DNA of 52,423 nucleotides from a virus. Of the stretch, positions 1 to 52,368 are shown piece by piece. The position numbers and the translations under genes are program-made. Each line of letters opens with the position of its first letter. Within the stretch, counting starts at the first letter, position 1. The notes under the pieces were generated by a model that was given only the letters and a program-made list of their open reading frames with translations, was not told the DNA's origin and did no database searches. The stretch covers positions 1 through 52,423 of IMG/VR virus record IMGVR_UViG_3300045988_112931. One strand, written 5' to 3'.

Positions 1-55
1 CCCCTAATTTTCTTTTTTTACAGCCTCCAATCTGTGATAGCCTGGAGGCTGTTTT
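1..55. repeat. 55-bp terminal direct repeat, copy 1 (identical to 52369-52423)
   Basis: Read directly. The string cccctaattttctttttttacagcctccaatctgtgatagcctggaggctgtttt occurs at both ends, and each copy ends exactly at the window edge. Confidence 0.95.
21..51 (+). terminator. Hairpin with a 9-bp stem (CAGCCTCCA/TGGAGGCTG) and 13-nt loop, followed by TTTT on the + strand only
   Basis: The inverted repeat was read directly. T-runs flank it on the + strand, so on the minus (coding) strand it lacks a U-tract. Confidence 0.4.
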
Positions 56-203
56 ATTATTCTTTCGCCACCGAACATTTTATATCTCCATTTGTTTTAA
101 AAGAAAATACCCAACCTGGGGTTGGCGATTATCAATAATTTTTTCTGAATATACATTTGCTGTCTTTCTGCTGTGACAGCCCAAAGACAGTGTCACTAAT
201 TTA

Positions 204-839
204 TTAATACGGCCTTGCAGGCGGAGTGAAGTTTGATGTCCAACGGGCAATATTACTGATGCGAAACTCGTCAATCATACCGTTCAGATACAATCCATAA
301 TCTCGATATTTTCCGATCATTAAAGAACTATAGTACCCTGAAACCATCGTTGATGTGAAACCAGACGCATACACTCCATTTACATACACTTTCCAATATC
401 GAGATTGTGACCTGACGATCGCAAGATGAACCCACTGATCCCGTGGCATCGTAAAATAGCATATTGCATCCCCTCGGGTTCCACCATACTGCAATCCAAA
501 GAAAATGCGTCCGTCTGATTCCTCCATTATATCAAAGCTGTAACTTCCATAAGCAACGCCTTTTGACATTATACCGTTTTTCACACCACTTTTCAGTTTA
601 ATCCAAAAATCGACGGTATAGTTTGGATATAGGGACTCGTTTATGGCATTCGTTCCACTTATCTTTACATACCCGTTTCCTGAAAACGAAACGCAATTCT
701 TGAATTTTCCCACTACATAGGACATATTACTACCAACATAAGGCTTGCCTGAGGCTTCATCTTTCAATGATCCATCAAAATGTAGCAACAGCAAAGTATT
801 CCTGTCTACTTTCTTCCGTCCCATCATCGATCTTATCAT
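204..839 (-). CDS. LamG / concanavalin-A-like lectin-fold protein, candidate receptor-binding fibre tip
   Basis: 211-aa ORF with a pattern typical of LamG jelly-roll domains: LLLHFDG, GKFKNCVSFSG, WVHLAIV, YVNG, IDEFRISN-ARW-FTPP. The N-terminus RSMMGRKK is shared with 992..1762. Strong SD GGAAAGGAGG upstream. Confidence 0.8.
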   Translation of the reverse strand: MIRSMMGRKKVDRNTLLLLHFDGSLKDEASGKPYVGSNMSYVVGKFKNCVSFSGNGYVKISGTNAINESLYPNYTVDFWIKLKSGVKNGIMSKGVAYGSYSFDIMEESDGRIFFGLQYGGTRGDAICYFTMPRDQWVHLAIVRSQSRYWKVYVNGVYASGFTSTMVSGYYSSLMIGKYRDYGLYLNGMIDEFRISNIARWTSNFTPPARPY

Positions 840-879
840 ACCAACCTCCTTTCCGCCGAAAGTCGGTCAGATACTTTAG

Positions 880-933
880 TTAAGAGGTGTTTACCCCCCC
901 CCCCGTTAACATTTGTAAACAATTATTTCTCAT
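880..933 (-). promoter_or_regulatory. Leader mini-ORF A (MRNNCLQMLTGGGVNTS*) containing the G11 tract, upstream of the LamG gene
   Basis: Translated by hand. The sequence ATG..ACG GGG GGG GGG GTA AAC ACC TCT TAA stops inside the ACCTCTT segment, which is complementary to the downstream SD AAGGAGG. Confidence 0.35.
894..904 (-). repeat. Homopolymeric G11 tract (C11 on the + strand)
   Basis: Counted directly. It lies 55-65 nt upstream of the ATG at 839. Confidence 0.95.
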
Positions 934-991
934 GACTTTATCTCCTATTTTTTAGTCGTTAATATCTTGTTTCATCTTTTTCAACGGCAGA

Positions 992-1762
992 TCATTCTTC
1001 GTAAGCCCAATAGCGGATCAGGACAGTGCCATCACCGCCGTTACCGTAAGTACCACAACCGCCACCACCGTAACCGCCACTTTTTCTATTGCCATTTCCA
1101 GTTCCGCATCCTTTGTCGTAATCGGATTCTCCCCCCATGCCCTCATTTATATTTCTGTCTGAACCACCACCTCCGGCATTTCGTTTCCCAGTAGGTTCGC
1201 CAAAATCGCGGGTTGTATGCCTTTGACCCTTTCCTCCGCCATATAGGGAACCAGCTGGATAGAGAGAGCCATTTTCATTGCGGCTGCCGATTCCGTTAGA
1301 TCCATCAGAACCCGCTTTAGCCGTATCTGAATCATCTCCTGCTCCGCCACTTCCGCCGTTGCCACCAGTATATGCTCCGGCATTACTTCCGCCTGGATAA
1401 CCATTACCCGCACCATTTCCGCCATTAGCTCTATAACTTGAATTTAAGAATTGAGAGTATCCACCGTTGGGGGCAACTTCAGAATACCCTCCAATTCCTC
1501 CTTTCCCAACTGTTATCGGAATTGACTGACCCGGTGCAACAGAGATAGCATCACCGTCTCTCCATCCGGATGTATCTTTTTTGAAGGTTTTAGTATAGCC
1601 GCCACCTCCACCGCTTCCATTATGTCCTGCACCCCCTCCTCCGACAAGAAACACATCAACCTCCCTACATCCTTTAGGTACGATCCAGATATAATTCCCG
1701 GCAGGATAGAACCTCTTGGTGAACAACTGCAACTTCTTCCGTCCCATCATCGATCGTCTCAT
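992..1762 (-). CDS. Glycine-rich domain tail fibre protein (paralog of 2883..3635)
   Basis: 256-aa ORF. It contains W-IVPKGC-EVDVFLVGGGGAG followed by long Gly/Asn/Ser-rich stretches, the same architecture as 2883..3635. SD GAAAGGAGGG upstream. Confidence 0.7.
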   Translation of the reverse strand: MRRSMMGRKKLQLFTKRFYPAGNYIWIVPKGCREVDVFLVGGGGAGHNGSGGGGGYTKTFKKDTSGWRDGDAISVAPGQSIPITVGKGGIGGYSEVAPNGGYSQFLNSSYRANGGNGAGNGYPGGSNAGAYTGGNGGSGGAGDDSDTAKAGSDGSNGIGSRNENGSLYPAGSLYGGGKGQRHTTRDFGEPTGKRNAGGGGSDRNINEGMGGESDYDKGCGTGNGNRKSGGYGGGGCGTYGNGGDGTVLIRYWAYEE

Positions 1763-1848
1763 CTACGCCCTCCTTTCTTACGATAAGAGGTCGTAACTTC
1801 TTTATTTAGAGAGCATTTTACCCCCCCCCGTTTAACTTTTAATAACAT
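1759..1848 (-). promoter_or_regulatory. Leader mini-ORF B (29 codons) reading through the G9 tract; its TGA stop overlaps the ATG of 992..1762 (ATGA)
   Basis: Translated by hand as MLLKVKRGGVKCSLNKEVTTSYRKKGGRR*. The stop is at 1759-1761 and the downstream ATG at 1760-1762. The ORF crosses the ACCTCTT anti-SD-like segment. Confidence 0.4.
1821..1829 (-). repeat. Homopolymeric G9 tract (C9 on the + strand)
   Basis: Counted directly. It is flanked by the same GTT(T)AAC / TAAA context as the G11 tract. Confidence 0.95.
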
Positions 1849-1856
1849 AACCTGTT

Positions 1857-2876
1857 TCATTGCTTTACCTCCTGTACAATTGTGGGCAAGTCTTTCAAGT
1901 CGTTCGGATAACCTGTAACGGTTGTCAGAATGCAGAGATAGATCACACCGTATTGTTCATAATATTTGTCTTTCTCGAATGCCATACCCTGCACGTATGG
2001 AATAGGATCATCAAGCGTGCCTGCGTGCTCAGCTTTAACGATCTTATACAGTGAAGCAGTTTCTATGCCCGGTTTCCAGTCGGCTTGCAGCTTGTGCTTT
2101 TGTATCACTTCAAACAAAGTGTCACTTTCTCCTTCCACTACTCGAAGCCGGAAGCCTATTTCAACTTCTTTGCCAAACTCTGCATCTTTCTCACCCCAAA
2201 TGGGGAATAAGACCTGCATCTCCAACGCTTGGCTGGCTGTGAGAGACACGCTGTTCATCATCGCACGGGCAAAGGTCACTGCCTGCGCTTCCGGGGATTT
2301 AGCGATTGCCTTATCTGCTTTAGTTTGCAAGGCTGCCGTTGTTGTATGGATCATTTCAGGATAGCCTTCCACTACGATAGCTTCGACCTCCCCGGCTGTT
2401 TGGGCGGCATCGATACGGGATAGCAAGCCGTCTGTCACCTTGCCGCATTGCTCCGAATAGTCCGCTATTTCGTCAAGAGCAACCGTTAAGATATTCGAGG
2501 CGTACAGATGACCGCCTACTTCGACTTCTTCCTGCCGGCTACACTTATCCTTCACTTGCAGGGTGTTCGAGACGTATGCGTCCTGTTCATCAATATAATA
2601 ATGATGGATGTCTTTATCGTAGATTTCCTGCCGTTTGGCATCACGGGCACGCCAGAGCAATTCTTCCGGTGTCGGCTGTGGTTCCGGTGTCAGTGCCATA
2701 TACCAACACTCGAGCGGTGATGCCTCCGGATAGTCGTTATGATACTGTTCCTGTTCTTCACTAAGCAGGAGATAAGCGCCATCTTCGTAATTTTCGATAT
2801 TGTCGCCAACAAGATAGGAATCAGGCAATTCTTGTTCCAATTCCAAAAACTGAATGTTTTTTTGAATATACAGCAT
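1857..2876 (-). CDS. Hypothetical protein within the tail fibre cluster
   Basis: 339-aa ORF tightly packed between the two Gly-rich genes. No motif recognised. Confidence 0.6.
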   Translation of the reverse strand: MLYIQKNIQFLELEQELPDSYLVGDNIENYEDGAYLLLSEEQEQYHNDYPEASPLECWYMALTPEPQPTPEELLWRARDAKRQEIYDKDIHHYYIDEQDAYVSNTLQVKDKCSRQEEVEVGGHLYASNILTVALDEIADYSEQCGKVTDGLLSRIDAAQTAGEVEAIVVEGYPEMIHTTTAALQTKADKAIAKSPEAQAVTFARAMMNSVSLTASQALEMQVLFPIWGEKDAEFGKEVEIGFRLRVVEGESDTLFEVIQKHKLQADWKPGIETASLYKIVKAEHAGTLDDPIPYVQGMAFEKDKYYEQYGVIYLCILTTVTGYPNDLKDLPTIVQEVKQ

Positions 2877-2882
2877 ATTGTC

Positions 2883-3635
2883 TTATTTATATTTCATGTA
2901 ACGAAGTATTATGATACCGGAACCGCCTGCGCCAGAATAGCATCCTCCTGAGACATTGGAACCACTTATATAAAAAGAACCTCCTCCTGAGCCCGTATTG
3001 GGTTCTCCATTAGTAGGTCTTCTCGAAATATCTCCGACATAACCGATACCACCGCCACCTGGTGCTGATCCGGAACTATATTCTCCACCACCTCCACCAC
3101 CTCCGGCGTACAATTTATTATTGAACGGGCATCTGGTAGTACTCCCTTGACCGATTCCAGGCATATCACCTGCTCCATTAGAACCATCACTTCCACCAAT
3201 ATATCCTGCCGTCTTTTCTGCAGGTCTTCCACTACCACCACCTGATCCCCCATCGCCCCCTCTTCCGGAATATCGACCTCCATTTCCGCCAAGAGCTTTT
3301 ATTGAATTAGATTTAAACCAGGACTCTGACCCTGGAAGACCATTCTTCTGATCATCGTAAGCAGACATCGAAACTACACGATCTCCCCCTTTCCCTATTG
3401 AATAGCTAACAACACTTTCTGGAGTAACAGGCACATCAAGATATGTTTTAACATACCCCGATCCGCCCCCTCCACCACCTCTTTCAGGGCCTGACGATGC
3501 ACCAGAGCCACCGCCACCAACAATGAATACATCAACAAATTTACAACCAGCTGGCACCATCCATGTACCGGATGATTTTAACTCTTCCACAACTTCTACC
3601 AATTCTCTCTTTCCTATCATCACCCTTCTCTTCAT
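2883..3635 (-). CDS. Glycine-rich domain tail fibre protein (paralog of 992..1762)
   Basis: 250-aa ORF with WMVPAGCKFVDVFIVGGGGSG followed by Gly-rich repeats. SD GAAAGGAGGTG upstream. Confidence 0.7.
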   Translation of the reverse strand: MKRRVMIGKRELVEVVEELKSSGTWMVPAGCKFVDVFIVGGGGSGASSGPERGGGGGGSGYVKTYLDVPVTPESVVSYSIGKGGDRVVSMSAYDDQKNGLPGSESWFKSNSIKALGGNGGRYSGRGGDGGSGGGSGRPAEKTAGYIGGSDGSNGAGDMPGIGQGSTTRCPFNNKLYAGGGGGGGEYSSGSAPGGGGIGYVGDISRRPTNGEPNTGSGGGSFYISGSNVSGGCYSGAGGSGIIILRYMKYK

Positions 3636-3651: not shown

Positions 3652-4635
3652 TTATACTCTCACGACAATTATCCCATGTTCTTTTTTCAGCGATACCCCT
3701 GTGGCTTTACCAGCTGGCAGTTCAACGCTTGTTTCCTCCGATTGCCAGCCCGAGCCGTTCGGGATCGGTTGGTTAATCGTTGATCCGGTGTTGTTCTTAA
3801 TGGACAGATAAAATTCCTGCATCTCCGGTACACTTCCTATATTCGCAAAGTTGATCGCCTGCACAGATGTACTCGAATAGGTAAAACGCAAGTTATACGG
3901 TGATGAAGGAAGCGACTTTAAGGTACCGACATCGACATACTCTTTCAGCCTCAAAGAGTCCGATACCTTCGTTTTCTCTTCATTGCTGTAGTCATTGGTT
4001 GATAGCCCCTTTCCCGTTACAGCTTCAACGACTTTGACCCATCCACCGGCTTTCCTGCCATACGTAGATGTATCAGATGGAGCATCTACAGTGATTGCCC
4101 CATCCTTGCCGGGCAAGCCTTGTATGCCCTGAAGACCCTGTTCGCCTCGTTCACCCGTTTCGCCTTTCTCGCCCTGTATCCCCTGCGGGCCCTGTTCGCC
4201 TCGATCGCCCTTTGGACCCTGTGCGCCTGTTTCTCCTTGCAAACCTTGTATGCCCTGTTCACCTTGAGGACCAGGGACACCCTGTATGCCCTGTTCACCT
4301 TTTGCCCCGGTTTCTCCTTTAGCGCCTGTTTCTCCTTTGTCCCCTTTATCCCCTTTTGCACCTTTAAGATTCGGTGTATCAAATGTGCCGGCAGCGGTCG
4401 TTATCTGGAGAATATATGTCGTTTCGTTATTGGTTTTGACACTGACCTGTATATCCTGCAAAACAGCCGGAAGATCTGCAAACGTATGCACTCCGTCGGA
4501 TAGCTTCATGCTGAACTTGCCATTCTCCAATCGTTCGAAGAGCCATACCGATGCCGGATAGACCGTCGTATCGCTTGCCCATTCGGCGGTCGTCTGTTCG
4601 ATCTGTTGATAAATAAATGCACCTTTCTTACTCAT
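3652..4635 (-). CDS. Collagen-like (G-X-Y repeat) tail fibre protein
   Basis: 327-aa ORF with about 30 uninterrupted G-X-Y triplets ([37 protein letters not shown]...). Confidence 0.85.
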
Positions 4636-6164: not shown

Positions 6165-7088
6165 TCAATTGAAAACTATTATTCTACCTTGCTCGTCTGC
6201 CAATAACCCCAAATCCGGATCTTTCAGCACACGGTAACGAACATCACCGCCGGCATCTATCCAACTCACCACGGGAGCAACAACAGAAATAGTGAATCTT
6301 GCCCCTATCCGGTTCTCCTGCCAGACTTCCACAGAAAAGGACGGGCAATCCGTATAGTACACCTGAATGATACCATCCAATGTCTTAATATATAATTCCT
6401 GATTTCCTACACCGGATATCTGGCTAAAGAATGCCCGATAATTATTCAGAAACTCTTCCACACTGCCGGCCAACATCCAAAGGGACAGTTTTATTTCCCT
6501 ATGCTGGGTTTTGATTGTCGAAAGGTCTACCGTACGGCCATCGGTGAACGGCGCCTTAACCGCAGGATATTTCAAGATGTCCTCCTGGTTATCATCCGAT
6601 CCTATACCGAAGTCTGCAAAGTCTATCCCATTAATCGCATACTGCCCGCGAAGCCCGATACCGCCGGCCGGAGTTGCCGGATAAATGGCATGATTGTCCT
6701 CGACAAAAGAAAGTTCAAACACAGATACGTTCTCCCCTGCATTAAATGGCACAGGCTGTTCGTGAGAAGAGCAGACATTGAAGCGTAAGCGGTTGGTCAT
6801 ACCGGCAATAAGATTGAATTCCCGATAGCCCGGTGCGGACAGATCAGCAACAAACTTTCTATACCCAGACCAGAACTGCTCAAGCGTTTCTGCCTTCATG
6901 AGGAATTTCAACTTGACGGTCTTAGGTTCGAACTCCACAACCGAGAGATCGGGATCGATTCCGTCGGCTTCCGCCCAGTTGTTATATTTGACTGCCTTAC
7001 GTTTGGGGTATTTCAGAAGATCATCAAAAGAACCTTCCAATAATTTACATCCCCATTCAGTATATACGTCTTTTCCGTCTATTGTCAT
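6165..7088 (-). CDS. Distal tail protein (Dit)-like
   Basis: 307-aa ORF shortly downstream of the tape measure. The N-terminus TIDGKDVYTEWGCKLL resembles siphovirus Dit N-termini. Called from position and size. Confidence 0.5.
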   Translation of the reverse strand: MTIDGKDVYTEWGCKLLEGSFDDLLKYPKRKAVKYNNWAEADGIDPDLSVVEFEPKTVKLKFLMKAETLEQFWSGYRKFVADLSAPGYREFNLIAGMTNRLRFNVCSSHEQPVPFNAGENVSVFELSFVEDNHAIYPATPAGGIGLRGQYAINGIDFADFGIGSDDNQEDILKYPAVKAPFTDGRTVDLSTIKTQHREIKLSLWMLAGSVEEFLNNYRAFFSQISGVGNQELYIKTLDGIIQVYYTDCPSFSVEVWQENRIGARFTISVVAPVVSWIDAGGDVRYRVLKDPDLGLLADEQGRIIVFN

Positions 7089-7496: not shown

Positions 7497-10400
7497 TTAC
7501 ATTTTTACTTTTACGTTAATAGTACCTTCCAGGGCATCAACCGTGCCTCTAGTGTTTTCCGATATCTTACCGGCAACCTCTTTGATCTCTCTCGTATTCT
7601 CGGCGATCCGATCGGTATTCTTTTCCACTTTATCTGATAGTTCGCGGATGGCCTTCACATCTTCCCAACCTCTGGATTGCATATCATAGATCAGCTTCAT
7701 TTGTTCCCGGATCGGTTGCATACTGCCGCGGATGTCTTCCAACAGGGCACGGACGGCCCCGGTCTGACCGGCCAACAAGTTTATGCTTTCTTGAGAGGCT
7801 TTGGCATATGCGCCTTTCAGGGTATTTTCGGATATATCTTCTTCTTTCTCCGGCTCTTCCACCTTATCTTTCATCAGGCTATCAGCCCAACCGAACTGCC
7901 TGTCAATCTCCTTTTGCAGTTCTTCCGCCATGTTATAGATATAATCCTGTTCCCAGCCGGAAAGGACATTGTCGGCATAGAACTCCTTCAGTTTGTCACG
8001 AATCTTCTTCATCGCACCGGAAGATTCCGTTGCTGCCTTGATGGATTCTGTGACCATCTGCCGCATCATCTTCTTGACGGTATCTTTCGCCGATTCTGCC
8101 CGGTCTTCACCGGAAGCCCATGCTTCGGCTTGTGCGTTAGCGAAGTTGTCAATGGCGGATTTCAAGTCTTCCCCGAAGATGGCATCTTTGGCCTTCTCCT
8201 TGTTGTCCGCTATGGCTTCGTTTATCTCGTCAATTTGGCTTTGCCATTCTTTTATCCTATCCTTATCGGTATTCTTTTTATCCTGTTCTTCACGGATTTG
8301 TTGTTGGATTAAAACTTTCTGTTGTTCCAACAGTTTGTTCTGCTGATCGATCAATCGGGAAGCATCATTCGAATAAGCCTTCTGAATGGATTTATCCAAT
8401 TTTTCGTATGATTTATCCAATGTGTCGATCTGATCCTGCAACCGCTGAATACGTTTTTCGTTCTTCTTGTCATGGATTTTGGCGATGGCACCGGCCAAAG
8501 ATGTAACAACGCCAATGGCAGCACCGGCAGACGCACCGATCGGACCGAACATGGAACCGGCTTTCGCACCGTTCATTGCAGAACTTACAGTGTCCATAGC
8601 CACACTGAAACCTTCAGCTATCCCACCGAATACACCACCAAACGAATCTCCGAGCTTCGAAAACGTGTCAGAGAGGAACTGCCCGGTCTGCATAATTTCA
8701 CTCATGCCCTCTTCTATTTCTGCCAAACCTTCTTTTAACTTCCTGGCATCACTTTCAGAGGTAAAGACTTTTTTTAGGCCATTTGAAACTTTATTAAAAG
8801 AGGTTTCCATTTGGTCGGCTTCACGGCGGACATTGGCTATTTCATCCTTGATGGCCTTCAACTGATCCGGTGATTTGCGAAGCACATCAAACTGTTCTTT
8901 GGTAATACCGAATGAATTATCAGATGAATATTCCCCTCTTTCAAGAAAAGACAAGAATTTTTCCGCTTCATCCGCAATGGCACGAATAGAGGTGATATTC
9001 TTTTTACTCATATCATCAAACAGCCGGGTGATAATGGAGGTACTCTTTTGGGCTTCATTATCCACGTCCGCCAGATCTTTCTTCATACCTTCTGCAAGGG
9101 AAAGCCGTTCACCTTCCGTTGTGGCCTTTGCTATCTTCTCATTATAAAGCTCCGTGATAGCCTGACGCTTTTCCAAATATGAACCATATTCTTTCAAGTA
9201 TTCGTTCATGGCGCGTTTCTCTTCCTCCAGTTGTTCCTTATTCACATTGGAGGTCGATTGCTCTCGTTTAACGTATGAATTGACCAAAGCGGTATGAATC
9301 TCGACCGTCTGTTCTTTGCTCAGTTTGCCGCCTTGCGCGTCTTTCCACTCTTTCTCTTTGGCGAGTATGGCTGCAATCTCATTGTCATAATCGAGGTTTA
9401 TCTGGGCGATCTTCTTGTCGGAACCTTCTTTCATCAGGTCTATTTCGGATTGCTGGTTTTGACGACGGAGGGATAAAAGTTCGTTATGAATCGTTTTTTG
9501 CTGTTTGAGTTGCTTATCCGCCTCTTTCTTTTCTTGTTTTTCGCGCTTGGTCGAATCAGAATATTTGTCTATTTGCGTTTGCGCCTCTTGTATCTGTTTT
9601 GTATACTTGCTCCAATCTTCAGAGTTCTTTTTTGATACATCCAAGGCATTACGAGCAGCTTCTGCATCCTGTTTCTGCTTCTCCCAATAGGATTTATTCT
9701 GTACAACAGAGATACTATTCCTCGTTAATGAATTGATCTTTCCTGTTGTCTCATCTATCTGCTTATTCAAAGCATCAAGCCTGATACTACTAATGATATC
9801 AGGAACACCCACCCACACAGAAGCTATATCCTCTGATTCCGTCAAAGTTTTATCAAGTTCATCCCTTTCCTCGATAAGTTTTCTTTTCACATCCTCATAA
9901 TGCTTAACCTTCTCTTCAACAGGAGTGTTAGCCTCCCATTGGGCTTCTTTTATTTTATCTATTTCTTCCTTATGGAGTTTTGCAAGATTATTAGCAGTAT
10001 CAAGTTGCTTATTAAGTCGTTCTACATCATGAATCCATGAATTACCAGATTTATTGTACGGAGAAGATTCTGTCTCTTGTATTTTCTTTTTAAGGTCCTC
10101 TATTCTTTTCAGATCAGCCTCATAAGCCTTAACCGCATTGTCTATTTCTCTCTTCTCATTGACAGATGATAACATCTTATTTTGCTGATCCTGAGGCAAA
10201 TTCTTAAACTCTTCGAGACTCACATTTCCAAGTTCGGGAAACAGTTTTATCAGCTCTTTGTATGCCTTAACCTGCGAATAAACAGATTCAGTCTCACTAT
10301 TTATTTTTGAAATCAGACTGTCTGTTTTAGAGGTAAGTTCCTGTTTCCTGTGCGCGGCTTCTTCTTGTTCTTTATTAAGTTGCTTTTGGGCTTTCTCGAC

Positions 10401-11906
10401 AGCGGTTGTACTATCATGAAGAACCCACATAGTAGCGGTAAAACTGGCTACGATGGTGGCAAGTAAAACATAAGGATTAGCTTTCATTGCCGCATTTAAA
10501 GCCAATTGAGCGACAGTCTGCGCTTTTGTCATAATTGTTTGGATTCCTTTTGCGGCCGCATCTACCCTTGCGGCAACAGCCCAACTACGAGTTAATGTAA
10601 TACTGGCTATCAAAGCAGTCCGATAAACTCCATAAGTAGCAGCCAACCCAGCCAATACCTTACCTATCGTTTCATAGTTTTCTATCAACGAAGTGGTTGT
10701 TTGGATACCCTTAATTATGACACCCTCCGATTTCTGCCCCAATTCATTGAATACTGAATCCATCGCATCTTGCATCATGGATAGCTGACCGTTGATAGTT
10801 TTTGAAGCGTTCTCGGACATATTATAAAATTTACCACTTGCCGAAGTAGCATCTATAAACGCCTGTTGTACCATTTCTGCGGAAATAGCCCCCTTAGACA
10901 TCTCATCTTTGAGCGCAGCAATAGATTTTCCGGTCTTATCTGCCATGATTTGCAACGGATTGAATCCGGCATTAATCATCTGATTAAGATCTTGCCCCAT
11001 CAACTTTCCTGCTGCCGACATTTGAGAGAAAGCCAACGTAAGCGAGTTAAACCTTTGGGTATCTCCCATAGAGACATCGCCAATAGCCTGTAAATAACGT
11101 GGTACTTTCTCGACCTCGATATTAAAGCCTAACATCATCTGCGTAGCTTGGGTTACATCAGAAAACTCAAGAGGAGAAATCTTTGCATATTCACGGACTT
11201 GTGACATAAGTTCATCCGCCTTTTCTTTGCTTCCAAGCAAAGTTTGAATAGCGGTGTCTACTGCTTGAAACTCGCCACGAACACGAACCATGTTTGACAG
11301 AAACTCCTTAATGGAGTATCCTCCCAATAATTTTTTGCCGACATTAGACATCGCTTGTTCTATCTGCTTTGTCACACCGACATTCTCTATACCCTCCTGT
11401 CGATATAAAGTATACTCGTCACGTAGTTTTTTTACCGATAGTCGTGCATTAGCCTGTTCTTGCGTTAATCCAAATAAAGCAGCTTTCTCTCCATCCAAGG
11501 CCTTGCGTGCAGCGTTGTATTCTTCCAATTTCTCATTAGCGGACAATGGATTTCTTTTCAATGCAATACGATAGGCCTCTCCAAGTCGTTTTACATCAGT
11601 CTCTACATCTTTAATAACAGCTTTTTGAGTGATAATTTTTTCTGATAATCCGTTTACAACTTGCGAAGCATCGAATATTTTCTTTTTAAAACCTTGGTTT
11701 ATTTCATTGCCTGCACGTACTGCGGAAGTGACAAGAGAATCCAATTCTTTCGTATTTTTAGCAAGTTGAACTTCCATTGCCCGGAAAGTAGCCGGAGAAG
11801 TATTACTATCCATCCCGGCAATAGTAGATTTTAACTTATCTATCTCTTCCCGTAACTTAATGACTTTTTGATAGTCAGCTTCTATGTGAAACGCTAATTT
11901 AGGCAT
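7497..11906 (-). CDS. Tail tape measure protein
   Basis: 1469-aa ORF, highly coiled-coil (E/K/Q rich) with a central hydrophobic segment. It lies immediately after the G/GT chaperone pair. Confidence 0.9.
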   Translation of the reverse strand: MPKLAFHIEADYQKVIKLREEIDKLKSTIAGMDSNTSPATFRAMEVQLAKNTKELDSLVTSAVRAGNEINQGFKKKIFDASQVVNGLSEKIITQKAVIKDVETDVKRLGEAYRIALKRNPLSANEKLEEYNAARKALDGEKAALFGLTQEQANARLSVKKLRDEYTLYRQEGIENVGVTKQIEQAMSNVGKKLLGGYSIKEFLSNMVRVRGEFQAVDTAIQTLLGSKEKADELMSQVREYAKISPLEFSDVTQATQMMLGFNIEVEKVPRYLQAIGDVSMGDTQRFNSLTLAFSQMSAAGKLMGQDLNQMINAGFNPLQIMADKTGKSIAALKDEMSKGAISAEMVQQAFIDATSASGKFYNMSENASKTINGQLSMMQDAMDSVFNELGQKSEGVIIKGIQTTTSLIENYETIGKVLAGLAATYGVYRTALIASITLTRSWAVAARVDAAAKGIQTIMTKAQTVAQLALNAAMKANPYVLLATIVASFTATMWVLHDSTTAVEKAQKQLNKEQEEAAHRKQELTSKTDSLISKINSETESVYSQVKAYKELIKLFPELGNVSLEEFKNLPQDQQNKMLSSVNEKREIDNAVKAYEADLKRIEDLKKKIQETESSPYNKSGNSWIHDVERLNKQLDTANNLAKLHKEEIDKIKEAQWEANTPVEEKVKHYEDVKRKLIEERDELDKTLTESEDIASVWVGVPDIISSIRLDALNKQIDETTGKINSLTRNSISVVQNKSYWEKQKQDAEAARNALDVSKKNSEDWSKYTKQIQEAQTQIDKYSDSTKREKQEKKEADKQLKQQKTIHNELLSLRRQNQQSEIDLMKEGSDKKIAQINLDYDNEIAAILAKEKEWKDAQGGKLSKEQTVEIHTALVNSYVKREQSTSNVNKEQLEEEKRAMNEYLKEYGSYLEKRQAITELYNEKIAKATTEGERLSLAEGMKKDLADVDNEAQKSTSIITRLFDDMSKKNITSIRAIADEAEKFLSFLERGEYSSDNSFGITKEQFDVLRKSPDQLKAIKDEIANVRREADQMETSFNKVSNGLKKVFTSESDARKLKEGLAEIEEGMSEIMQTGQFLSDTFSKLGDSFGGVFGGIAEGFSVAMDTVSSAMNGAKAGSMFGPIGASAGAAIGVVTSLAGAIAKIHDKKNEKRIQRLQDQIDTLDKSYEKLDKSIQKAYSNDASRLIDQQNKLLEQQKVLIQQQIREEQDKKNTDKDRIKEWQSQIDEINEAIADNKEKAKDAIFGEDLKSAIDNFANAQAEAWASGEDRAESAKDTVKKMMRQMVTESIKAATESSGAMKKIRDKLKEFYADNVLSGWEQDYIYNMAEELQKEIDRQFGWADSLMKDKVEEPEKEEDISENTLKGAYAKASQESINLLAGQTGAVRALLEDIRGSMQPIREQMKLIYDMQSRGWEDVKAIRELSDKVEKNTDRIAENTREIKEVAGKISENTRGTVDALEGTINVKVKM

Positions 11907-15891: not shown

Positions 15892-17013
15892 TTATGCTGA
15901 TTGGATGGATGCAATTTCGCTCAAATCGAAATTAGTAATCAAATCTGGATTGGAAATCTGCGGAATCCACTCTGCCGTATATTCCATGTAGCGACCGTTT
16001 TTGTCACGATAGTTAGAGATAAGCATCTGCCCCTCTGACGGGATATAAGTACGTCCTTGTACTGGGTCTGTCGCTTCATACGGAGTATGATGACGCATAT
16101 AACCAATGTTGTCAGAAGGTAACAGAGTAATACGATTATCCGCGTAAATCTGCACATTCTTTCCCGTCTGGTCTTTCACGTAGTCCTCCTTGATTTCGAT
16201 GCGAGGCAGACCGATGCCGGTGAACACTTCGGAAGCCAAAGAAGAGGAAACCAATCCCGTACTCAACTTCATCTCATTAGAACCAAGAATCATCTTGTAC
16301 TGCTCACCAAATTCAGATGAACCAAGAATAAGTTTGTTGAAAGATGCACGGGTCATTATCATCTTGGCATAAACACCAAAATCCGGAGCTAAAGAATGAA
16401 GTTTCTCTCTCAAATAAGAGATAAACATATTCTTTCCGTCCACAACCACATCTCCACTTTTCGGCTTGATAAAATTGAACGGAAGGGTAATCTCCAGCAG
16501 TTTATTATTGGTCTGACCGGAAGTGATTGCAGCGTCTTTGTTGTAAACGGTAGCTTCACCAAGCATCAACAGCGCACCGACAATAATGTCCATACGCTTG
16601 TGGGCAGCAAGGGTAATCTGACGGTAGTCGTCTGCCAGGAAGTTTACAATCTCTTCCATTGCAGCCTTTTGGTCGGCTGGCTTAGCTGCATTGAACTTGT
16701 CAATCAAATCCTGCAATTCAGAAAGACGGTCAATAGACATCTGATAAGCATCACCCAAATAGGCAATCTCACCATATCCGGAACCGATGTTCCGACGTTC
16801 ACGGATGGGTTTCTCTCCAAAACGTGAATTGATAGAGCCGGCCATAACTCCGGTTACAGAACCGATATAATCCTTGAACACACGAGTAGTTACTCTGCGG
16901 AAAGTAAGATACTGCTGCCAATAGATTGTGTCCTTGCGTGTCTGGTTCACACGTCTGATGATAGCGGAAACGATGTTCGCATCATCGAATAATGTTTGAA
17001 TCGTTAAAAACAT
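15892..17013 (-). CDS. Major capsid protein
   Basis: 373-aa ORF after the scaffold and decoration-like genes. Strong SD TAAGGAGG. The size and N-terminal region are reminiscent of the lambda gpE-type capsid family. Confidence 0.7.
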   Translation of the reverse strand: MFLTIQTLFDDANIVSAIIRRVNQTRKDTIYWQQYLTFRRVTTRVFKDYIGSVTGVMAGSINSRFGEKPIRERRNIGSGYGEIAYLGDAYQMSIDRLSELQDLIDKFNAAKPADQKAAMEEIVNFLADDYRQITLAAHKRMDIIVGALLMLGEATVYNKDAAITSGQTNNKLLEITLPFNFIKPKSGDVVVDGKNMFISYLREKLHSLAPDFGVYAKMIMTRASFNKLILGSSEFGEQYKMILGSNEMKLSTGLVSSSLASEVFTGIGLPRIEIKEDYVKDQTGKNVQIYADNRITLLPSDNIGYMRHHTPYEATDPVQGRTYIPSEGQMLISNYRDKNGRYMEYTAEWIPQISNPDLITNFDLSEIASIQSA

Positions 17014-26460: not shown

Positions 26461-26497
26461 AAAGGGGCTGTCCAAAAAGTCGGATAGCCCCTTTTGC
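26461..26497 (+). terminator. Hairpin AAAGGGGCT-(16 nt)-AGCCCCTTT followed by T-rich sequence
   Basis: Read directly. It follows the Zn-ribbon gene. It may also overlap the left end of the IS. Confidence 0.55.
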
Positions 26498-28225
26498 TAT
26501 TGTTTATTTCGGTAAAAAGTATTATCTTACCGTTGCAAAAACCAAACATTATAGCAATGGCTAAGATAGTATTTAAAGAGTTAACATCCAACCAAAATGT
26601 ACTTTTTCCGGTCAGCTTATCGGAAAAGATAGCTCCCAATCATCCCGTTCGTGTTGTAAACAGTGTTGTAGACGCCTTGGATATTAGTTGTCTGCTCTGG
26701 GCATATAAAGGAGGAGGTACCAGCAGCTACCATCCCCGTATGATGCTCAAAGTTCTGTTTTATGCCTACCTGAACAATATCTATTCTTGTCGTAAAATAG
26801 AAAAGGCCTTGCAGGAGAATATTCACTTCATGTGGTTGTCTGGTAATAGTACTCCCGATTTCCGCACGATCAATGATTTCCGTGGTAAACGTTTAAAAGA
26901 ACACATAAAATCGTTGTTTTCAGCCATTGTTCTGCTGTTACAGGAATCCGGCTATGTCAGTTTGGATGTACAGTATATCGATGGTACCAAAGTGGAATCA
27001 GCCTCCAACCGCTACACTTTTGTCTGGCGTGGTAGCGTGGAAAAGAACAAGGTAAAACTGGAGTCGAAAATACAGTCAATCCTTAGTGAAGTTGACAAAC
27101 ATATCGAGCAGGATAAACAGGAAAGGACACCAGATTGCTTACCGGATATGGATTCCTGTGGTTTGCGGGAAAAAGTGAGCGCTTTAAACAAACGGCTCTC
27201 CGGGATGAACAATGCTGAGCAGAAACAAATCAAAAAGTTACAGGAAGAATATCTGCCCCGCCTTGCCAAATACGAATCGCAATTAGAGAAATTAGGGGAT
27301 CGTAATTCTTTCAGTAAGACTGATGAGGATGCGACCTTCATGCGTATGAAAGAGGATCATATGAAAAACGGGCAATTGAAACCCGCCTATAACATACAGA
27401 TTGCCACAGAGAATCAATTTATTACCAATCTGGGAATTTACAGGCGAGCCGGAGATACGGGAACTTTAATTTCTTTTTTGAAAGATTTTCGAGAGACTTA
27501 TCATAGGCAATCCTCTATAGTAGTGGCCGATGCCGGTTATGGAAGTGAACAAAACTACGAGTTTATGGAGAATGCGGGTATAGAGGCTTTTGTCAAGTAC
27601 AATTATTTCCACAAAGAGCAAAAGCGTGCCTGGAAGAAGGATGCTTTTGCCATACAGAACCTTTACTACAACCAGGAAAGGGATTATTACGTATGCCCGA
27701 TGGGACAACATATGGAGTATAAAGGTCAAAAGAAAAGTAAATCCGATTTGGGATATGTATCCATACTGAAGCGTTATCAGGCACAAAATTGTGAGGGGTG
27801 CCCGCTGAAATCTCAATGCCATAAATCAAAGGCCAACCGGATCATAGAAGTTAACTATAACCTTAACAGGTATAAACAAAAAGCACGGGAAAGACTCATG
27901 AGTGAGGAAGGTATTTATCATCGGGGCAGACGATGTATAGAACCGGAAGCTGTCTTTGCACAGATAAAGCATAACTCGGCGTGGAACCGGTTTAGATTAA
28001 GAGGGTTGGAGAAGGTAAAAACAGAATTTACCCTGGTTGCTATTGCACATAATCTCAGGAAACTGGCTAAAAAAGTCAGTTTTCTTTTGTTTTTTACTTA
28101 TTTCTGTAGGATGACTTCTCGAAAAGTAATAATTGAGAAGACCAAAGATATTTTAAATATAAAAATGGATAATAAACGGGCTGCATAACAAAAAAAGAAG
28201 GCTGCCTTTTCAGACACCTTCTTTC
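26466..28225 (+). mobile_element. IS1182-family insertion sequence (boundaries approximate)
   Basis: One long transposase ORF. The hairpin loops at 26470-26485 and 28202-28216 are imperfect reverse complements (about 10/15) and could be the terminal inverted repeats. I could not identify a target-site duplication. Confidence 0.6.
26557..28188 (+). CDS. IS1182-family (IS5-like DDE) transposase
   Basis: 543 aa from MAKIVFKEL. The N-terminus ...HPVRVVNSVVDALD...YHPRMMLKVLFYAYLNNIYSCRKIE is typical of the InsH-N/DUF772 region, and the C-terminal part is DDE-like. Confidence 0.85.
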   Translation: MAKIVFKELTSNQNVLFPVSLSEKIAPNHPVRVVNSVVDALDISCLLWAYKGGGTSSYHPRMMLKVLFYAYLNNIYSCRKIEKALQENIHFMWLSGNSTPDFRTINDFRGKRLKEHIKSLFSAIVLLLQESGYVSLDVQYIDGTKVESASNRYTFVWRGSVEKNKVKLESKIQSILSEVDKHIEQDKQERTPDCLPDMDSCGLREKVSALNKRLSGMNNAEQKQIKKLQEEYLPRLAKYESQLEKLGDRNSFSKTDEDATFMRMKEDHMKNGQLKPAYNIQIATENQFITNLGIYRRAGDTGTLISFLKDFRETYHRQSSIVVADAGYGSEQNYEFMENAGIEAFVKYNYFHKEQKRAWKKDAFAIQNLYYNQERDYYVCPMGQHMEYKGQKKSKSDLGYVSILKRYQAQNCEGCPLKSQCHKSKANRIIEVNYNLNRYKQKARERLMSEEGIYHRGRRCIEPEAVFAQIKHNSAWNRFRLRGLEKVKTEFTLVAIAHNLRKLAKKVSFLLFFTYFCRMTSRKVIIEKTKDILNIKMDNKRAA

Positions 28226-51400: not shown

Positions 51401-51689
51401 GTGTACCATGAAGGAAAAACTCTGCATCCAAAAGGTCGTACCGACTTGAATAGAACTGAACGGTATATTCCCAACCAAGAGATGTCTCCCTTTTCGTCAC
51501 CTTCTCATTATGCCGGATCTTGTATTTTGTCCCTTCAAAGTCTATATAGTCGTTGATTTGAAGGTTTACCACATTTCGGGAAAGAAAATTCAGGGTAAGA
51601 GTGTCCTCACCCATGATCTCTTCGACCGTATAACTGTTATCCTTCAAATAAACATCACAAACTACCGTATTTCCGCGCTTTATTTCCAT
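48429..51689 (-). CDS. Tal-like tail-tip / minor structural protein with a C-terminal fibre region
   Basis: 1086 aa. The N-terminal roughly 400 aa resemble the siphovirus minor structural protein / prophage tail endopeptidase N-terminal region. The C-terminus has Gly-rich repeated units (IRIWSGGTAG...FRVESNG and VRIWAGNATP...FKVYQNG). Confidence 0.6.
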   Translation of the reverse strand: MEIKRGNTVVCDVYLKDNSYTVEEIMGEDTLTLNFLSRNVVNLQINDYIDFEGTKYKIRHNEKVTKRETSLGWEYTVQFYSSRYDLLDAEFFLHGTPERKKNFDYYTGTARDWLTLFVKNMNRTGSGWVAGSCIESRMVTLSFKDKKVGTVLDELIKELDTEYWISGQTINIGRREYSSNGLVLAQGEGMGFTELEVSAVDDTPPVTVLYPYGSDKNLGPDYGADYLLLPDGLLSIEKNVEKYGRIEKSMQFDHIFPKGEFAVTEKIDDYTLRAADMDFNLTDCLLDGVEVIVTFQDGGLAGYDLAIVEDSWDNDLKQFKLKQNDQENALKVPGDINFSVGDKFILTGLKMPQSYRDNASLQLQEEAQAWLDGKCEKRIQLRGKCDEIVFRLQNIFIACGQMVGVYSEQLDIDREIRVTKIKRYIEKDGTPSYRYELTLSDFLESNGFKDLVDDVNKVPEEIEDAVKPVREHTKRSWRDVMETLGMMFDPEGDYFTELIKPLAVHTAQLIVGTNSQQMELIGMKFIPNADNDANYFKNTTGKLVHFTVSEEIREWAIPAASFRLNNSLAYYVYAKCPKEGTNGSIYVSERQIKLEDETGFYHFWVGVLNTPEDGVRSWLPNYGYTEIAGQTITTGLIKDKLARLVIDLVNGTITGPVIFKSGTSGYNNISDRPNLQPLYDGVNDALTDAENASNVANNAQLTANNKARVFYQTTAPTSGMRTNDLWVDGENIYRYSGSKWVLASKYDNTITEINGGLITTGAIAFGSTGGMSASGTIRIWSGGTAGAKGQPPTDPTFRVESNGNVESRGSIYIANSNGEKLAGLSGGGTAGNSVRIWAGNATPANAPFKVYQNGDAYIGGLRMESGGLFSDNRYSGESSSKFFLYSSGSNAFLGFSSSGKWAGLGLNTLPSTLGGTSALMRLEYTTNHNDINYGAVINVNGGYRNYALFCNGGLRLNGAISTARYVRPGAKTNAIINDIGYMDTYLFQPTSYINVYLPSRNTVSSKMGTVYNDYGDSWSEIGYNSVIFIHVIVSRHATDAICVRPEDTNTPLVNENGDSITLDMRKGDCATFAYINQTWYLFNKNF

Positions 51690-51718
51690 ACTGCTAAATA
51701 ACCTACTTATTTTTAGGC

Positions 51719-51768
51719 AATAAAAAACACGGCAACCGGATATATGACATTTTACCGGTTGTCGTGTT
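51719..51768 (-). terminator. Rho-independent terminator between the membrane-protein gene and the Tal-like gene
   Basis: On the minus strand, ACACGACAACCGG-(15 nt)-CCGGTTGCCGTGT (13 bp, 1 mismatch) is followed by TTTTTATTG. Confidence 0.75.
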
Positions 51769-51806
51769 TTAATATATAAGGTAGATGTTCTGTTTATGGT
51801 AGATTT

Positions 51807-52331: not shown

Positions 52332-52368
52332 ACTTTATTGTTTAACTTTGTTTCCGGAGACCCTCGGT

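What the first reader, a model, noticed from the sequence alone, without database searches (positions are those of the whole stretch)
836..1848. G-tract leader mini-ORFs before two receptor-binding-protein genes: candidate slipped-strand translational switch
The LamG gene (204..839) and the Gly-rich gene (992..1762) are each preceded by a homologous leader. On the minus strand it reads ATGTTA .. GTT(T)AAC-G(n)-TAAA .. ACCTCTTA .. AAAGGAGG .. ATG. The first 10 codons of both genes are also nearly identical at the DNA level (RSMMGRKK). The tracts are G9 (1821-1829) and G11 (894-904).

In leader B, a 29-codon mini-ORF (1848 to 1759) reads G9 as Gly codons. It then crosses ACCTCTT, which is complementary to the downstream SD AAGGAGG. 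It stops at a TGA that overlaps the fibre gene's ATG (ATGA).

In leader A, the equivalent mini-ORF is out of register. With G11 it stops at the TAA at 880-882, inside the anti-SD-like segment. With G12 or G9 it would run to a TGA overlapping the LamG ATG in the same ATGA arrangement. I translated both registers by hand.

Tract length modulo 3 would therefore decide whether ribosomes melt the SD-sequestering pairing and terminate on the start codon. That would give reversible ON/OFF expression of alternative host-recognition proteins. I do not know of a described phage RBP switch of this kind.
Basis: partly seen in the sequence, partly recalled or inferred. Interest (0 to 1): 0.75.

Follow-up and report, generated by a model that had tools for sequence, protein, structure and literature searches.

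The report
Hypervariable G-run leaders before tail-fibre genes
A widespread Bacteroides prophage carries, in front of two accessory tail-fibre genes, a tiny upstream reading frame containing a run of 7-13 G's whose length changes far faster than the rest of the genome and probably decides, by reading frame, whether ribosomes reach and unmask the start of the fibre gene - a likely new way for a gut phage to switch host-binding proteins on and off.

Summary
The minus-strand G9 (1821-1829) and G11 (894-904) are the only G runs of 8 or more in 52 kb. They sit in two homologous leaders, before a Gly_rich_2 gene and a LamG gene in the tail module of a Bacteroides temperate siphophage.

In more than 90 related contigs the leaders are almost invariant, but the tracts range from G6 to G13. 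Assemblies with 0-2 substitutions in 6.2 kb carry 9/10, 9/9, 12/10 and 9/9. Shorter control homopolymers do not vary.

Eight diverged leader variants share one design:
- an AGGAG-preceded mini-ORF start;
- the G tract;
- a TAA or TGA stop directly after the tract;
- one frame open to an ATGA stop/start overlap (0 stop triplets in that frame, 36 in the other two);
- a covarying hairpin that buries GGAGG and the spacer up to the start codon.

A neighbouring cassette has neither tract nor hairpin.

Best reading: a slipped-strand switch read out through translational coupling. This is inferred, not shown. There are no read-level or expression data. The ON frame is not enriched (47/127). The host class is reported SD-blind. 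The receptor-binding role rests on domain matches and gene position.

It is a new variant of a known kind.

The parts
1857..2876 (-). Upstream 339-aa tail-module gene. Its TGA (1857-1859) overlaps the mini-ORF B start codon (ATGA). Its last codons contain the AGGAGG (1868-1873) that precedes that start.
   Evidence: Homologues at 86-100% identity in 80 IMG/VR loci. The exact protein is listed in 1336 blocks of the assembly collection.
1759..1860 (-). Mini-ORF B (33 codons with G9: MKQVMLLKVKRGGVKCSLNKEVTTSYRKKGGRR). It ends in a TGA that overlaps the Gly-rich gene's ATG (ATGA). This is the predicted ON register.
   Evidence: Gene callers annotate it as a 33- or 34-aa gene in near-identical contigs.
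1821..1829 (-). Tract B, G9. Followed directly by TAA (1818-1820).
   Evidence: Length is 6-12 in relatives with invariant flanks. It is 9 versus 12 in assemblies that are otherwise identical.
1763..1796 (-). Hairpin B. The 5' arm UUACGACCUCUU pairs with AAGGAGGGCGUAG, burying the GGAGG (1769-1773) and the spacer up to position -1 of ATG 1762.
   Evidence: -14 kcal/mol. The arms covary between leader variants.
992..1762 (-). Cassette 2: Gly_rich_2 protein, 256 aa. The N-terminus MRRSMMGRKK is shared with the other cassettes.
   Evidence: The ORF is intact in every relative, whatever the leader state.
880..933 (-). Mini-ORF A as it stands with G11 (MRNNCLQMLTGGGVNTS, stop TAA 880-882). This is the predicted OFF register. 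Its own AGGAG lies at 942-946. With G9 or G12 the frame would run to TGA 836-838, which overlaps ATG 839.
894..904 (-). Tract A, G11. Followed directly by TAA (891-893).
   Evidence: Length is 7-12 (13 in one low-quality contig) in relatives. It is 9, 10 or 11 in near-identical assemblies.
840..867 (-). Hairpin A. ACCGACUUUC (858-867) pairs with GGAGGUUGGU (840-849). An outer helix, UAUC (870-873) with GAUA (834-837), encloses the start codon.
   Evidence: -14.8 to -17.6 kcal/mol; z -2.2.
204..839 (-). Cassette 3: LamG / concanavalin-like lectin-fold protein, 211 aa. N-terminus MIRSMMGRKK.
   Evidence: Found behind leader A in 43 relatives and behind leader B in 10.
2883..3635 (-). Cassette 1: second Gly_rich_2 protein, 250 aa, N-terminus MKRRVMIGK. 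It has GAAAGGAGG but no G tract, no mini-ORF and no hairpin. It serves as an internal control and is presumably constitutive.
   Evidence: MFE -5.9 kcal/mol; GGAGG unpaired.

Best explanation
Each leader is a phase-variable translational coupler.

Proposed mechanism:
1. A short ORF starts behind its own AGGAG. In leader B its start also overlaps the stop codon of the upstream gene.
2. The ORF runs into a hypermutable G tract. Replication slippage changes the tract length, and so sets the frame in which ribosomes leave the tract.
3. In one frame ribosomes stop at the TAA/TGA that abuts the tract.
4. In a second frame they stop 4-6 codons later, except in variant C, where this frame runs past the start codon.
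5. In the third frame they read 17-20 further codons (about 51-60 nt) through the 5' arm of a hairpin that otherwise buries the cassette's start region. They terminate on a TGA that overlaps the cassette ATG (ATGA) and can re-initiate there.

The window as sequenced would therefore be cassette 2 (Gly-rich) ON and cassette 3 (LamG) OFF. The two switches act independently, which gives four virion types.

Shown:
- the anatomy;
- its conservation;
- tract hypervariability between genomes;
- maintenance of the open frame;
- covariation of the hairpin.

Inferred:
- that slippage occurs within populations;
- that the mini-ORF is translated;
- that cassette translation depends on it;
- that the cassettes bind receptors.
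For: 1. Hypervariability.
- The tracts range from 6 to 13 in more than 90 contigs, while the leader flanks are nearly invariant.
- G5, G6, C5, A6 and one A7 run in the same loci never vary.
- Four assemblies that differ by 0-2 substitutions in 6.2 kb carry 9/10, 9/9, 12/10 and 9/9.
- A diverged lineage (type D) varies from G7 to G11.

2. A coding signature in the coupling frame.
- Eight leader variants have 0 stop triplets in the frame that ends at ATGA, against 36 in the other two frames.
- The chance of an open frame is 0.11-0.47 per variant in shuffles.
- The tract-to-ATG distances are 51, 54, 54, 57, 57 and 60. They are 55 and 58 only where the A-run that abuts the tract has one extra A.
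- The post-tract stop alternates between TAA and TGA but is never lost.

3. Occluded start.
- Every variant folds into a hairpin whose 3' arm is GGAGG plus the spacer.
- The spacer positions show compensatory pair changes: +5 U-A/C-G/U-G, +6 C-G/G-C/U-G, +7 G-C/A-U, +8 U-A/A-U/C-G, +9 A-U/U-A/C-G.
- The cassette without a tract lacks the hairpin.

4. ATGA overlaps are common in this phage. At least nine 4-nt stop/start overlaps appear in the coordinates. This is consistent with, but does not show, routine use of coupling.

5. Cassette ORFs are intact in all 77 complete predicted-OFF copies and all 47 predicted-ON copies. All four ON/OFF combinations occur at the frequencies expected for independent switches.

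6. A related cassette also carries an intragenic G7/G8 tract that truncates or restores its ORF.
Against: - The ON register is not enriched: 47/127, against 1/3 expected by chance. The TAAAT subvariant of leader B keeps the mode at G9, which is OFF there (1/15 ON).
- No reads, transcripts or ribosome profiles were available. Differences between assemblies could partly be homopolymer consensus error, and one A7 run also varies.
- Bacteroidia ribosomes are reported SD-blind (PMC7797042, PMC9976891, PMC10798248). The role of GGAGG as a ribosome-binding signal is therefore doubtful. Re-initiation efficiency in this host is unknown.
- In variant C a second frame also runs through the hairpin and past the start codon.
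- The leader variants are homologous, so the open-frame and stop-count statistics are not independent samples.
Confidence: 0.52

Rival explanations
1. The tracts are real contingency tracts, but tract length is read out in another way. One option is spacing inside a promoter that drives the cassette. Another is a variable G-repeat in the mRNA leader that pairs with a C/U-rich RNA (a small RNA or the adjacent CU-rich box). Output would then depend on absolute length, not on length modulo 3.
For: - A sigma-70-like TTAAAA-16 nt-TAAAAT site spans the G9 of leader B.
- The modal length is about 9-10 in all leader types, whatever the frame.
- A CU-rich box follows every tract and is predicted to pair with it in variants A, B, D and E.
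- There is precedent for a length-variable G-repeat in an mRNA leader targeted by a small RNA: H. pylori tlpB/RepG (PMC8295292).
Against: - The promoter-like match is 9 of 12, in a scan that finds 9 sites against 6.7 expected.
- The '-10' is not conserved in other variants (TAAACA, TAAATC, TGAATT).
- By eye, nothing resembling the Bacteroides -7 TAnnTTTG motif (a motif recalled from my own knowledge) follows the tract in any variant.
- This reading does not explain the 0 versus 36 stop distribution, the retained TAA/TGA, the ATGA overlap or the start-occluding hairpin.
- G-tract to CU-box pairing is not predicted in variant C, and one extra G would hardly change it.
Confidence: 0.15
2. There is no switch. 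The mini-ORF and hairpin form a fixed coupling device, or the cassettes initiate on their own. The G runs are slippage-prone but functionally neutral sequence, and their apparent variation is partly assembly noise.
For: - The ON frame is at chance frequency.
- Cassettes are intact in both registers, which also fits expression that ignores the tract.
- Long G runs are error-prone in short-read consensus. One contig (L039) shows obvious errors next to its tract.
- Gene callers sometimes start the LamG gene at Met6, so other start codons exist.
Against: - A neutral run of 9-12 G's would not be expected to persist at the homologous spot in leader variants that have diverged by many substitutions and several indels (8 variants, two slots per genome).
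- Differences of 3 bases (12 versus 9) between otherwise identical 6.2-kb stretches are not typical consensus errors.
- The stops placed in exactly the two non-coupling frames right after the tract serve no purpose unless the frame varies.
Confidence: 0.15
3. The repeated leader plus the conserved first 10 codons is mainly a homologous-recombination linker for swapping or deleting tail-fibre cassettes. The G tract is incidental, or stimulates recombination.
For: - The same LamG cassette sits behind leader A in 43 contigs and behind leader B in 10. In those 10 the Gly-rich cassette and leader A are missing, as expected from recombination between the direct repeats (L332).
- At least three cassette types follow leader A.
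- The Gly-rich cassette is shared at 98.7% identity with a crAss-like phage. The match ends about 90 nt inside the gene, so the first ~30 codons and the leader are not shared.
Against: - Recombination needs only the repeat. It does not explain the tract, the frame-specific stops, the ATGA overlap or the covarying hairpin.
- Cassette 1 shares the N-terminal motif and exchanges its C-terminal part without any G-tract leader.
- This role is compatible with the switch rather than an alternative to it.
Confidence: 0.1

Closest known systems
Hypermutable poly-G tracts in Campylobacter phages (Sorensen et al. 2021, Cell Rep 35:109214; cited in PMC12823448 and PMC10877375)
   Same: Both are phage-encoded poly-G tracts that change length by slippage and create subpopulations differing in host-recognition proteins.
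   Different: By my knowledge of that paper, which I did not read here, its tracts lie inside the coding sequences and switch by frameshifting the protein itself. Here the tracts lie outside the cassette ORFs, whose own frame has a TAG directly before the ATG. They sit in a separate mini-ORF, so the protein is never altered. The host is also different (Bacteroides). One relative does carry the classical intragenic form as well (G7/G8).
Bacterial contingency loci with homopolymer tracts (Neisseria, Haemophilus, Campylobacter, Helicobacter; T. pallidum tpr poly-G)
   Same: All have a long homopolymer that is polymorphic in length between near-identical genomes and controls a surface or host-interaction gene. 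Occasional stabilising interruptions occur here too, e.g. GGGGAGGGGGGG.
   Different: The known readouts, from my own knowledge, are a frameshift of the gene itself or promoter spacing. Two full-text searches of the library turned up no case of a tract in an upstream coupling ORF.
Translational coupling through a structured start site (RNA phage MS2 coat/replicase and lysis gene; erm/cat leader-peptide control). From my own knowledge.
   Same: The downstream start is closed by a hairpin and is opened only by ribosomes translating the upstream frame. In MS2 lysis, where the upstream ribosome terminates (which depends on its frame) decides re-initiation.
   Different: In those systems the frame or stall is set by rare ribosomal events or by an antibiotic. 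Here it would be set heritably and reversibly by DNA tract length.
H. pylori tlpB leader G-repeat regulated by the small RNA RepG (PMC8295292)
   Same: Both involve a length-variable G-repeat in an mRNA leader rather than in the coding sequence, with a post-transcriptional readout.
   Different: The RepG readout is small-RNA pairing and is graded with repeat length. Here no small RNA is known, and the conserved stops and ATGA overlap point to a frame-dependent readout.
Other phage host-range switches: invertible tail-fibre segments (Mu Gin, P1 Cin) and diversity-generating retroelements (BPP-1, Bacteroides hankyphage)
   Same: The biological outcome is the same: one genome yields virions with alternative receptor-binding equipment.
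   Different: There are no inverted repeats and no invertase. No reverse transcriptase turned up among the proteins I scanned, but I did not search the whole window for one. The mechanism here is replication slippage plus translation.

Membership tests
Simple-sequence-repeat contingency (phase-variable) locus | A long uninterrupted homopolymer at a fixed position associated with the regulated gene | tested here: met
   G9 and G11 are the only G runs of 8 or more in the window. The tract is present at the homologous position in 8 leader variants.
Simple-sequence-repeat contingency (phase-variable) locus | Tract length is polymorphic between otherwise near-identical genomes, far above background | tested here: met
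   Tracts of 9/10, 9/9, 12/10 and 9/9 occur in assemblies with 0-2 substitutions in 6.2 kb. Control homopolymers are invariant.
Simple-sequence-repeat contingency (phase-variable) locus | Reversible length heterogeneity within one population or lineage | not testable with these tools
   This needs raw reads or single-plaque lineages. Only consensus assemblies were available.
Simple-sequence-repeat contingency (phase-variable) locus | A change in tract length changes expression of the gene | not testable with these tools
   In silico, the mini-ORF termination site shifts with length modulo 3. No expression data are available.
Translationally coupled gene pair (termination and re-initiation) | The upstream stop overlaps or abuts the downstream start | tested here: met
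   An ATGA overlap is present at both cassette starts and in all 8 leader variants in the coupling frame.
Translationally coupled gene pair (termination and re-initiation) | The downstream start region is closed by RNA structure that upstream translation would melt | tested here: met
   The hairpin is predicted in every variant, with compensatory changes in the spacer positions. It is absent from the cassette that has no tract. This is prediction only.
Translationally coupled gene pair (termination and re-initiation) | Downstream translation depends on upstream translation | not testable with these tools
   This needs mutants of the mini-ORF start codon or early-stop mutants.
Campylobacter-phage-type intragenic poly-G switch | The tract lies inside the coding sequence of the regulated protein | tested here: not met
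   Both tracts lie 54-58 nt upstream of the cassette ATG. The cassette frame has in-frame stops upstream (TAG at 1763-1765), so no N-terminal extension is possible.
Promoter-spacer phase variation | The tract lies between conserved promoter elements at a functional spacing | tested here: inconclusive
   Leader B has a 9-of-12 sigma-70-like match, in a scan that is not enriched over shuffles. The hexamers are not conserved in the other variants. By eye, no Bacteroides-type -7 motif is present. The transcript start is unknown.
Phage receptor-binding / tail-fibre tip protein | Encoded in the tail module and carries a binding-type fold | tested here: met
   The gene order is tape measure, distal tail protein, collagen-like fibre, then the cassettes. 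Domains are Laminin_G_3 and Gly_rich_2. Weak matches to carbohydrate-binding modules were found.
Phage receptor-binding / tail-fibre tip protein | Mediates adsorption to a host receptor | not testable with these tools
   No functional data exist. PHROG matches are mostly 'unknown function', 'minor tail protein' or 'tail fiber assembly'.

The most novel reading that the evidence does not exclude
This would be a previously undescribed class of phase-variation switch. A hypermutable homopolymer is placed in a dedicated coupling mini-ORF, not in the gene or its promoter. It gates termination and re-initiation at a structurally closed start site. Two such switches act independently, so a very common Bacteroides prophage would produce four virion types from one genome without ever altering the proteins. 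It would operate in a host whose ribosomes ignore SD sequences. The conserved GGAGG would then serve as the structural arm of the lock, or as a signal used only by terminating ribosomes.
Probability: 0.45. Interest if true: 0.82.

Novelty: new variant of a known kind. Interest (0 to 1): 0.72.

Why it matters
Bacteroides evade phages by phase-varying their capsules and surface proteins. How their phages keep up is poorly understood, beyond retroelement-driven diversification.

This element would be a phage-side contingency system in one of the most widespread human-gut prophage lineages. The exact neighbouring protein is listed in 1336 blocks of public assemblies.

It suggests a general design: a slippery tract in a coupling mini-ORF in front of a locked start. 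Current gene- and promoter-centred screens for phase variation would miss it.

It also matters for annotation. These homopolymer differences should not be 'polished' away in assemblies.

The proposal is directly testable with amplicon sequencing and three-register reporters.

Tried and rejected
- **Fusion by frameshift.** I considered whether the mini-ORF could fuse to the cassette or to the upstream gene. Rejected: the cassette frame has TAG directly before its ATG and many upstream stops.
- **Promoter-spacer model.** There is one weak sigma-70-like match, it is not conserved, and there is no Bacteroides-type motif.
- **Known RNA family.** No Rfam match at E up to 1 in 600-2100.
- **Terminator or attenuator.** No U-run follows the hairpins.
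- **GenBank phages.** The leader has no DNA match there. The only close match is the Gly-rich gene body in crAss-like cr1_1, which has no leader.
- **Genome collection, 339-aa protein.** This search found nothing. The terminase search then gave the host range.
- **MAFFT/RNAalifold on the hairpins.** The arms were mis-registered for variants A, D and F. I replaced this with a GGAGG-anchored pair table.
- **A first statistics script timed out** and was redone.
- **G-tract pairing with the CU-rich box.** This is not consistent across variants and is left unexplained.
- **PDB sequence searches.** They gave nothing decisive on cassette function.
- **Search for more intragenic G7/G8 examples.** It found only the two loci already known.
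Full report
**What is there**

On the minus strand the window carries the distal end of a siphophage tail module. The gene order is:
- tape measure (7497-11906);
- distal tail protein (6165-7088);
- a 511-aa protein;
- a collagen-like fibre (3652-4635);
- a Gly_rich_2 protein (2883-3635, 'cassette 1');
- a 339-aa protein (1857-2876);
- a second Gly_rich_2 protein (992-1762, 'cassette 2');
- a LamG-fold protein (204-839, 'cassette 3').

The genome is a temperate phage of Bacteroidales.
- Its terminase is 99% identical to one in a Bacteroides MAG. Homologues at 57-92% lie on contigs assigned mostly to Bacteroides, Phocaeicola and Parabacteroides, several of them megabase-sized chromosomes.
- Part of the genome matches Bacteroides phage BS-TP2.
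- The exact 339-aa protein occurs on contigs up to more than 1 Mb, in 1336 blocks of the assembly collection.

- G9 (1821-1829) and G11 (894-904) are the only G runs of 8 or more in 52 kb. Shuffles give a mean of 0.63 hits.
- The two tracts sit in two leaders that align at 78% identity, including the first ten codons of the two cassettes.

There are two corrections.
- Mini-ORF B really starts at ATG 1860, which overlaps the TGA of the 339-aa gene. Mini-ORF A starts at ATG 933, behind its own AGGAG.
- The segment predicted to pair with GGAGG in leader A is ACCGACUUUC, not ACCUCUU.

**Relatives: tract behaviour**

A search with the 339-aa protein returned 80 IMG/VR loci at 86-100% identity. Pattern searches and an exact-protein look-up added more.

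- In these loci the leader flanks are almost invariant, while the tracts run from G6 to G13.
- By flank-anchored counting, tract B is 8:7, 9:32, 10:17, 11:4, 12:2. Tract A is 7:2, 8:12, 9:17, 10:20, 11:7, 12:2.
- Every G5, G6, C5 and A6 run, and one A7 run, in the same region is invariant. One other A7 run, at window 13-19, does vary.
- Four assemblies from different samples differ from each other by 0-2 substitutions over 6.2 kb. They carry tract pairs 9/10, 9/9, 12/10 and 9/9. Two of them have no substitution at all and yet differ by 3 and by 1 G.
- Some tracts are interrupted by a single base, as is seen in bacterial contingency loci.

The tracts therefore change much faster than anything around them. 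I cannot separate true heterogeneity from consensus error without reads. A 3-base difference and a 7-13 range across lineages are, however, hard to ascribe to error alone.

**Relatives: a conserved design**

I found eight leader variants: A, B with TAAAAT, B with TAAAT, C, C', D, E and F. They have diverged by many substitutions and several indels.

All eight keep the following:
- a mini-ORF start, preceded by AGGAG(G/A)TAAAG in seven of the eight (weakened to AGAAGATAAAG in F). In B, C and D it overlaps the stop of the upstream gene;
- 29-31 nt, then the G tract;
- a stop triplet directly after the tract. This is TAA in most. Within type D it alternates between TGA and TAA;
- a GAAAGGAGG-type motif;
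- an ATGA overlap with a cassette that begins M-[RI]-R-[SA]-M-M-G.

In every variant the frame that ends at that ATGA is open all the way from the tract.
- Across the eight variants there are 0 stop triplets in that frame and 36 in the other two.
- For a single variant, shuffles give an open frame with probability 0.11-0.47.
- The variants are related, so these are not independent trials. The frame has nonetheless survived many substitutions and several indels.
- The indels are telling. The tract-to-ATG distances are 51, 54, 54, 57, 57 and 60. They are 55 and 58 only in the two variants with an extra A in the A-run that abuts the tract.

The peptide is not conserved. The nucleotide block before the tract is read in different frames in A and B. 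What seems to matter is ribosome passage, not the product.

**The locked start**

Every variant folds into a hairpin whose 3' arm is GGAGG plus the 3-6 nt spacer that reaches the start codon. Energies are -11 to -20 kcal/mol.

When the variants are anchored on GGAGG, the spacer positions are paired in nearly all of them, through different pairs:

| Position | Pairs seen |
|---|---|
| +5 | U-A, C-G, U-G |
| +6 | C-G, G-C, U-G |
| +7 | G-C, A-U, G-U |
| +8 | U-A, A-U, C-G, G-U |
| +9 | A-U, U-A, C-G |

This is compensatory change.

Cassette 1 has the same GAAAGGAGG and the same N-terminal motif, but no tract and no mini-ORF. It shows no such hairpin: MFE -5.9 kcal/mol, with GGAGG unpaired. The lock and the tract go together.

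**Most likely mechanism**

Tract length modulo 3 sets where the mini-ORF ribosome stops.
- At the abutting stop.
- At a second stop 4-6 codons on, which lies at least 36 nt before the ATG.
- On the ATGA, after melting the hairpin.

Only the last should allow efficient initiation at the cassette ATG. By this rule the window is ON for cassette 2 (G9) and OFF for cassette 3 (G11).

Across 81 contigs the predicted states are:
- ON in 28/59 (B-TAAAAT), 1/15 (B-TAAAT) and 18/53 (A);
- pairs B/A of OFF/OFF 20, ON/OFF 14, OFF/ON 12 and ON/ON 6, which is what independent switches would give.

All complete cassette ORFs are intact in both predicted states, 77 OFF and 47 ON. This fits reversible silencing rather than decay.

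Stop/start overlaps of the ATGA kind occur at nine or more other gene junctions of this phage (coordinates). This is consistent with routine use of coupling, though it does not show it.

**Weaknesses**

- The ON register is not enriched (47/127).
- The B-TAAAT subvariant keeps the mode at G9 although that is OFF there. Consensus lengths may simply reflect mutational equilibrium around 9-10.
- Nothing here shows translation of the mini-ORF or dependence of the cassette on it.
- Ribosomes of the host class, Bacteroidia, are reported to be blind to SD sequences, during initiation and largely during elongation (PMC7797042, PMC9976891, PMC10798248).
  - Only 7 of 69 genes in this phage carry a strong SD-like motif, yet all three cassettes and the mini-ORFs do.
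  - The 'lock' is therefore better described as occlusion of the start region. The role of GGAGG itself stays open.
- In variant C a second frame also traverses the hairpin and overruns the start.
- A conserved CU-rich box just after each tract has no consistent predicted partner.

**Rivals**

- *Promoter-spacer switch.* It has one weak, non-conserved sigma-70-like match. It leaves the frame-specific features unexplained.
- *Neutral or artefactual variation.* It fits the chance-level ON frequency. It does not fit conservation of such long tracts at homologous sites in diverged leaders, nor the stops arranged for exactly the two non-coupling frames.
- *Recombination linker.* The repeated leader and N-terminal block clearly also serve this role.
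  - LamG follows leader B in 10 contigs in which cassette 2 and leader A are deleted.
  - Several cassette types follow leader A.
  - This is an additional role, not an alternative to the switch.
- *Known RNA family.* No Rfam family matches.

**Comparison with what is known**

- The nearest described system is the poly-G tracts of Campylobacter phages (Sorensen 2021, cited in PMC12823448 and PMC10877375). By my knowledge of that work, those tracts lie within coding sequences. Here the defining feature 'tract inside the regulated ORF' is not met.
- One relative does have a classical intragenic G7/G8 tract in its LamG cassette: a 137-aa truncated ORF versus a 209-aa ORF.
- Mechanistically the design combines a bacterial contingency tract with MS2- or erm-type structure-gated coupling (my own knowledge).
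- Two full-text searches found no description of a homopolymer in a coupling mini-ORF.

I rate it a new variant of a known kind, with substantial interest, pending read-level and reporter evidence.

Noticed in passing
window 994-1672 (minus strand); L001 (NC_055873 97205-97883): The body of the Gly_rich_2 cassette is 98.7% identical at the DNA level to a gene of the crAss-like phage cr1_1, whose genome shows no other DNA-level match in the stretches I searched. The match ends about 90 nt inside the gene, so the first 30 codons and the leader are not shared. cr1_1 also has a 37%-identical homologue of the 339-aa protein next to it. This looks like a recent cassette exchange between a siphophage and a Crassvirales phage.
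   Followed up: partly
L133 1673 and L125 (reverse strand) 7243: In C-type relatives the LamG cassette carries a second G tract inside its coding sequence. G7 gives a truncated 137-aa ORF and G8 gives the full 209-aa ORF. This is the classical intragenic form of poly-G switching, in the same phage group. Only these two loci were found in IMG/VR.
   Followed up: partly
window 13-19 (minus strand A7): An A run downstream of the LamG gene varies from A6 to A9 among relatives (6:1, 7:68, 8:35, 9:7). All other control homopolymers are invariant.
   Followed up: no
window 950-974 (minus strand): Just upstream of leader A lies ATGAAACAAGATATTAACGACTAAAAAAT. It resembles the start of mini-ORF B (ATGAAACAGGTTATG...GTTAAAC-G9-TAAAAT) with the tract collapsed to a single G. 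It may be a decayed third leader.
   Followed up: no
window 204-3635; L002-L081: Proteins with unrelated bodies (LamG, Gly-rich, others) all begin with the motif M-[KRI]-R-[RS]-[VM]-M-M-G-[KR]. They swap positions between leader slots. LamG directly follows leader B in 10 contigs that lack cassette 2 and leader A. The conserved 5' block seems to act as a recombination junction, and perhaps as a docking peptide.
   Followed up: partly
window 26494-28188 (+ strand): A DDE transposase gene (DDE_Tnp_1_6, DUF772) lies on the opposite strand to almost all phage genes. An insertion sequence has apparently landed inside the phage genome.
   Followed up: no
whole window: Only 7 of 69 predicted genes have a strong AGGAG/GGAGG motif upstream. 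This fits an SD-blind Bacteroides host. The exceptions include all three tail-fibre cassettes and gene 15892-17013.
   Followed up: partly
window 1-203 and 48429-52423: Relatives place a 171-aa protein and a 1086-aa Prophage_tail-like protein directly after the LamG cassette (L330-L335). In the window these lie at 51807-52322 and 48429-51689. The window is therefore probably a circularly permuted complete phage genome.
   Followed up: no
window 875-890 and 1803-1814 (minus strand), and all leader variants: A CU-rich box (CACCUCUU, GCUCUCU, UUCUCCUU and similar) follows every G tract by 4-6 nt. Its predicted partner differs between variants: the G tract itself, or codons 5-7 (AUGAUGGG). Its role is unexplained.
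   Followed up: partly
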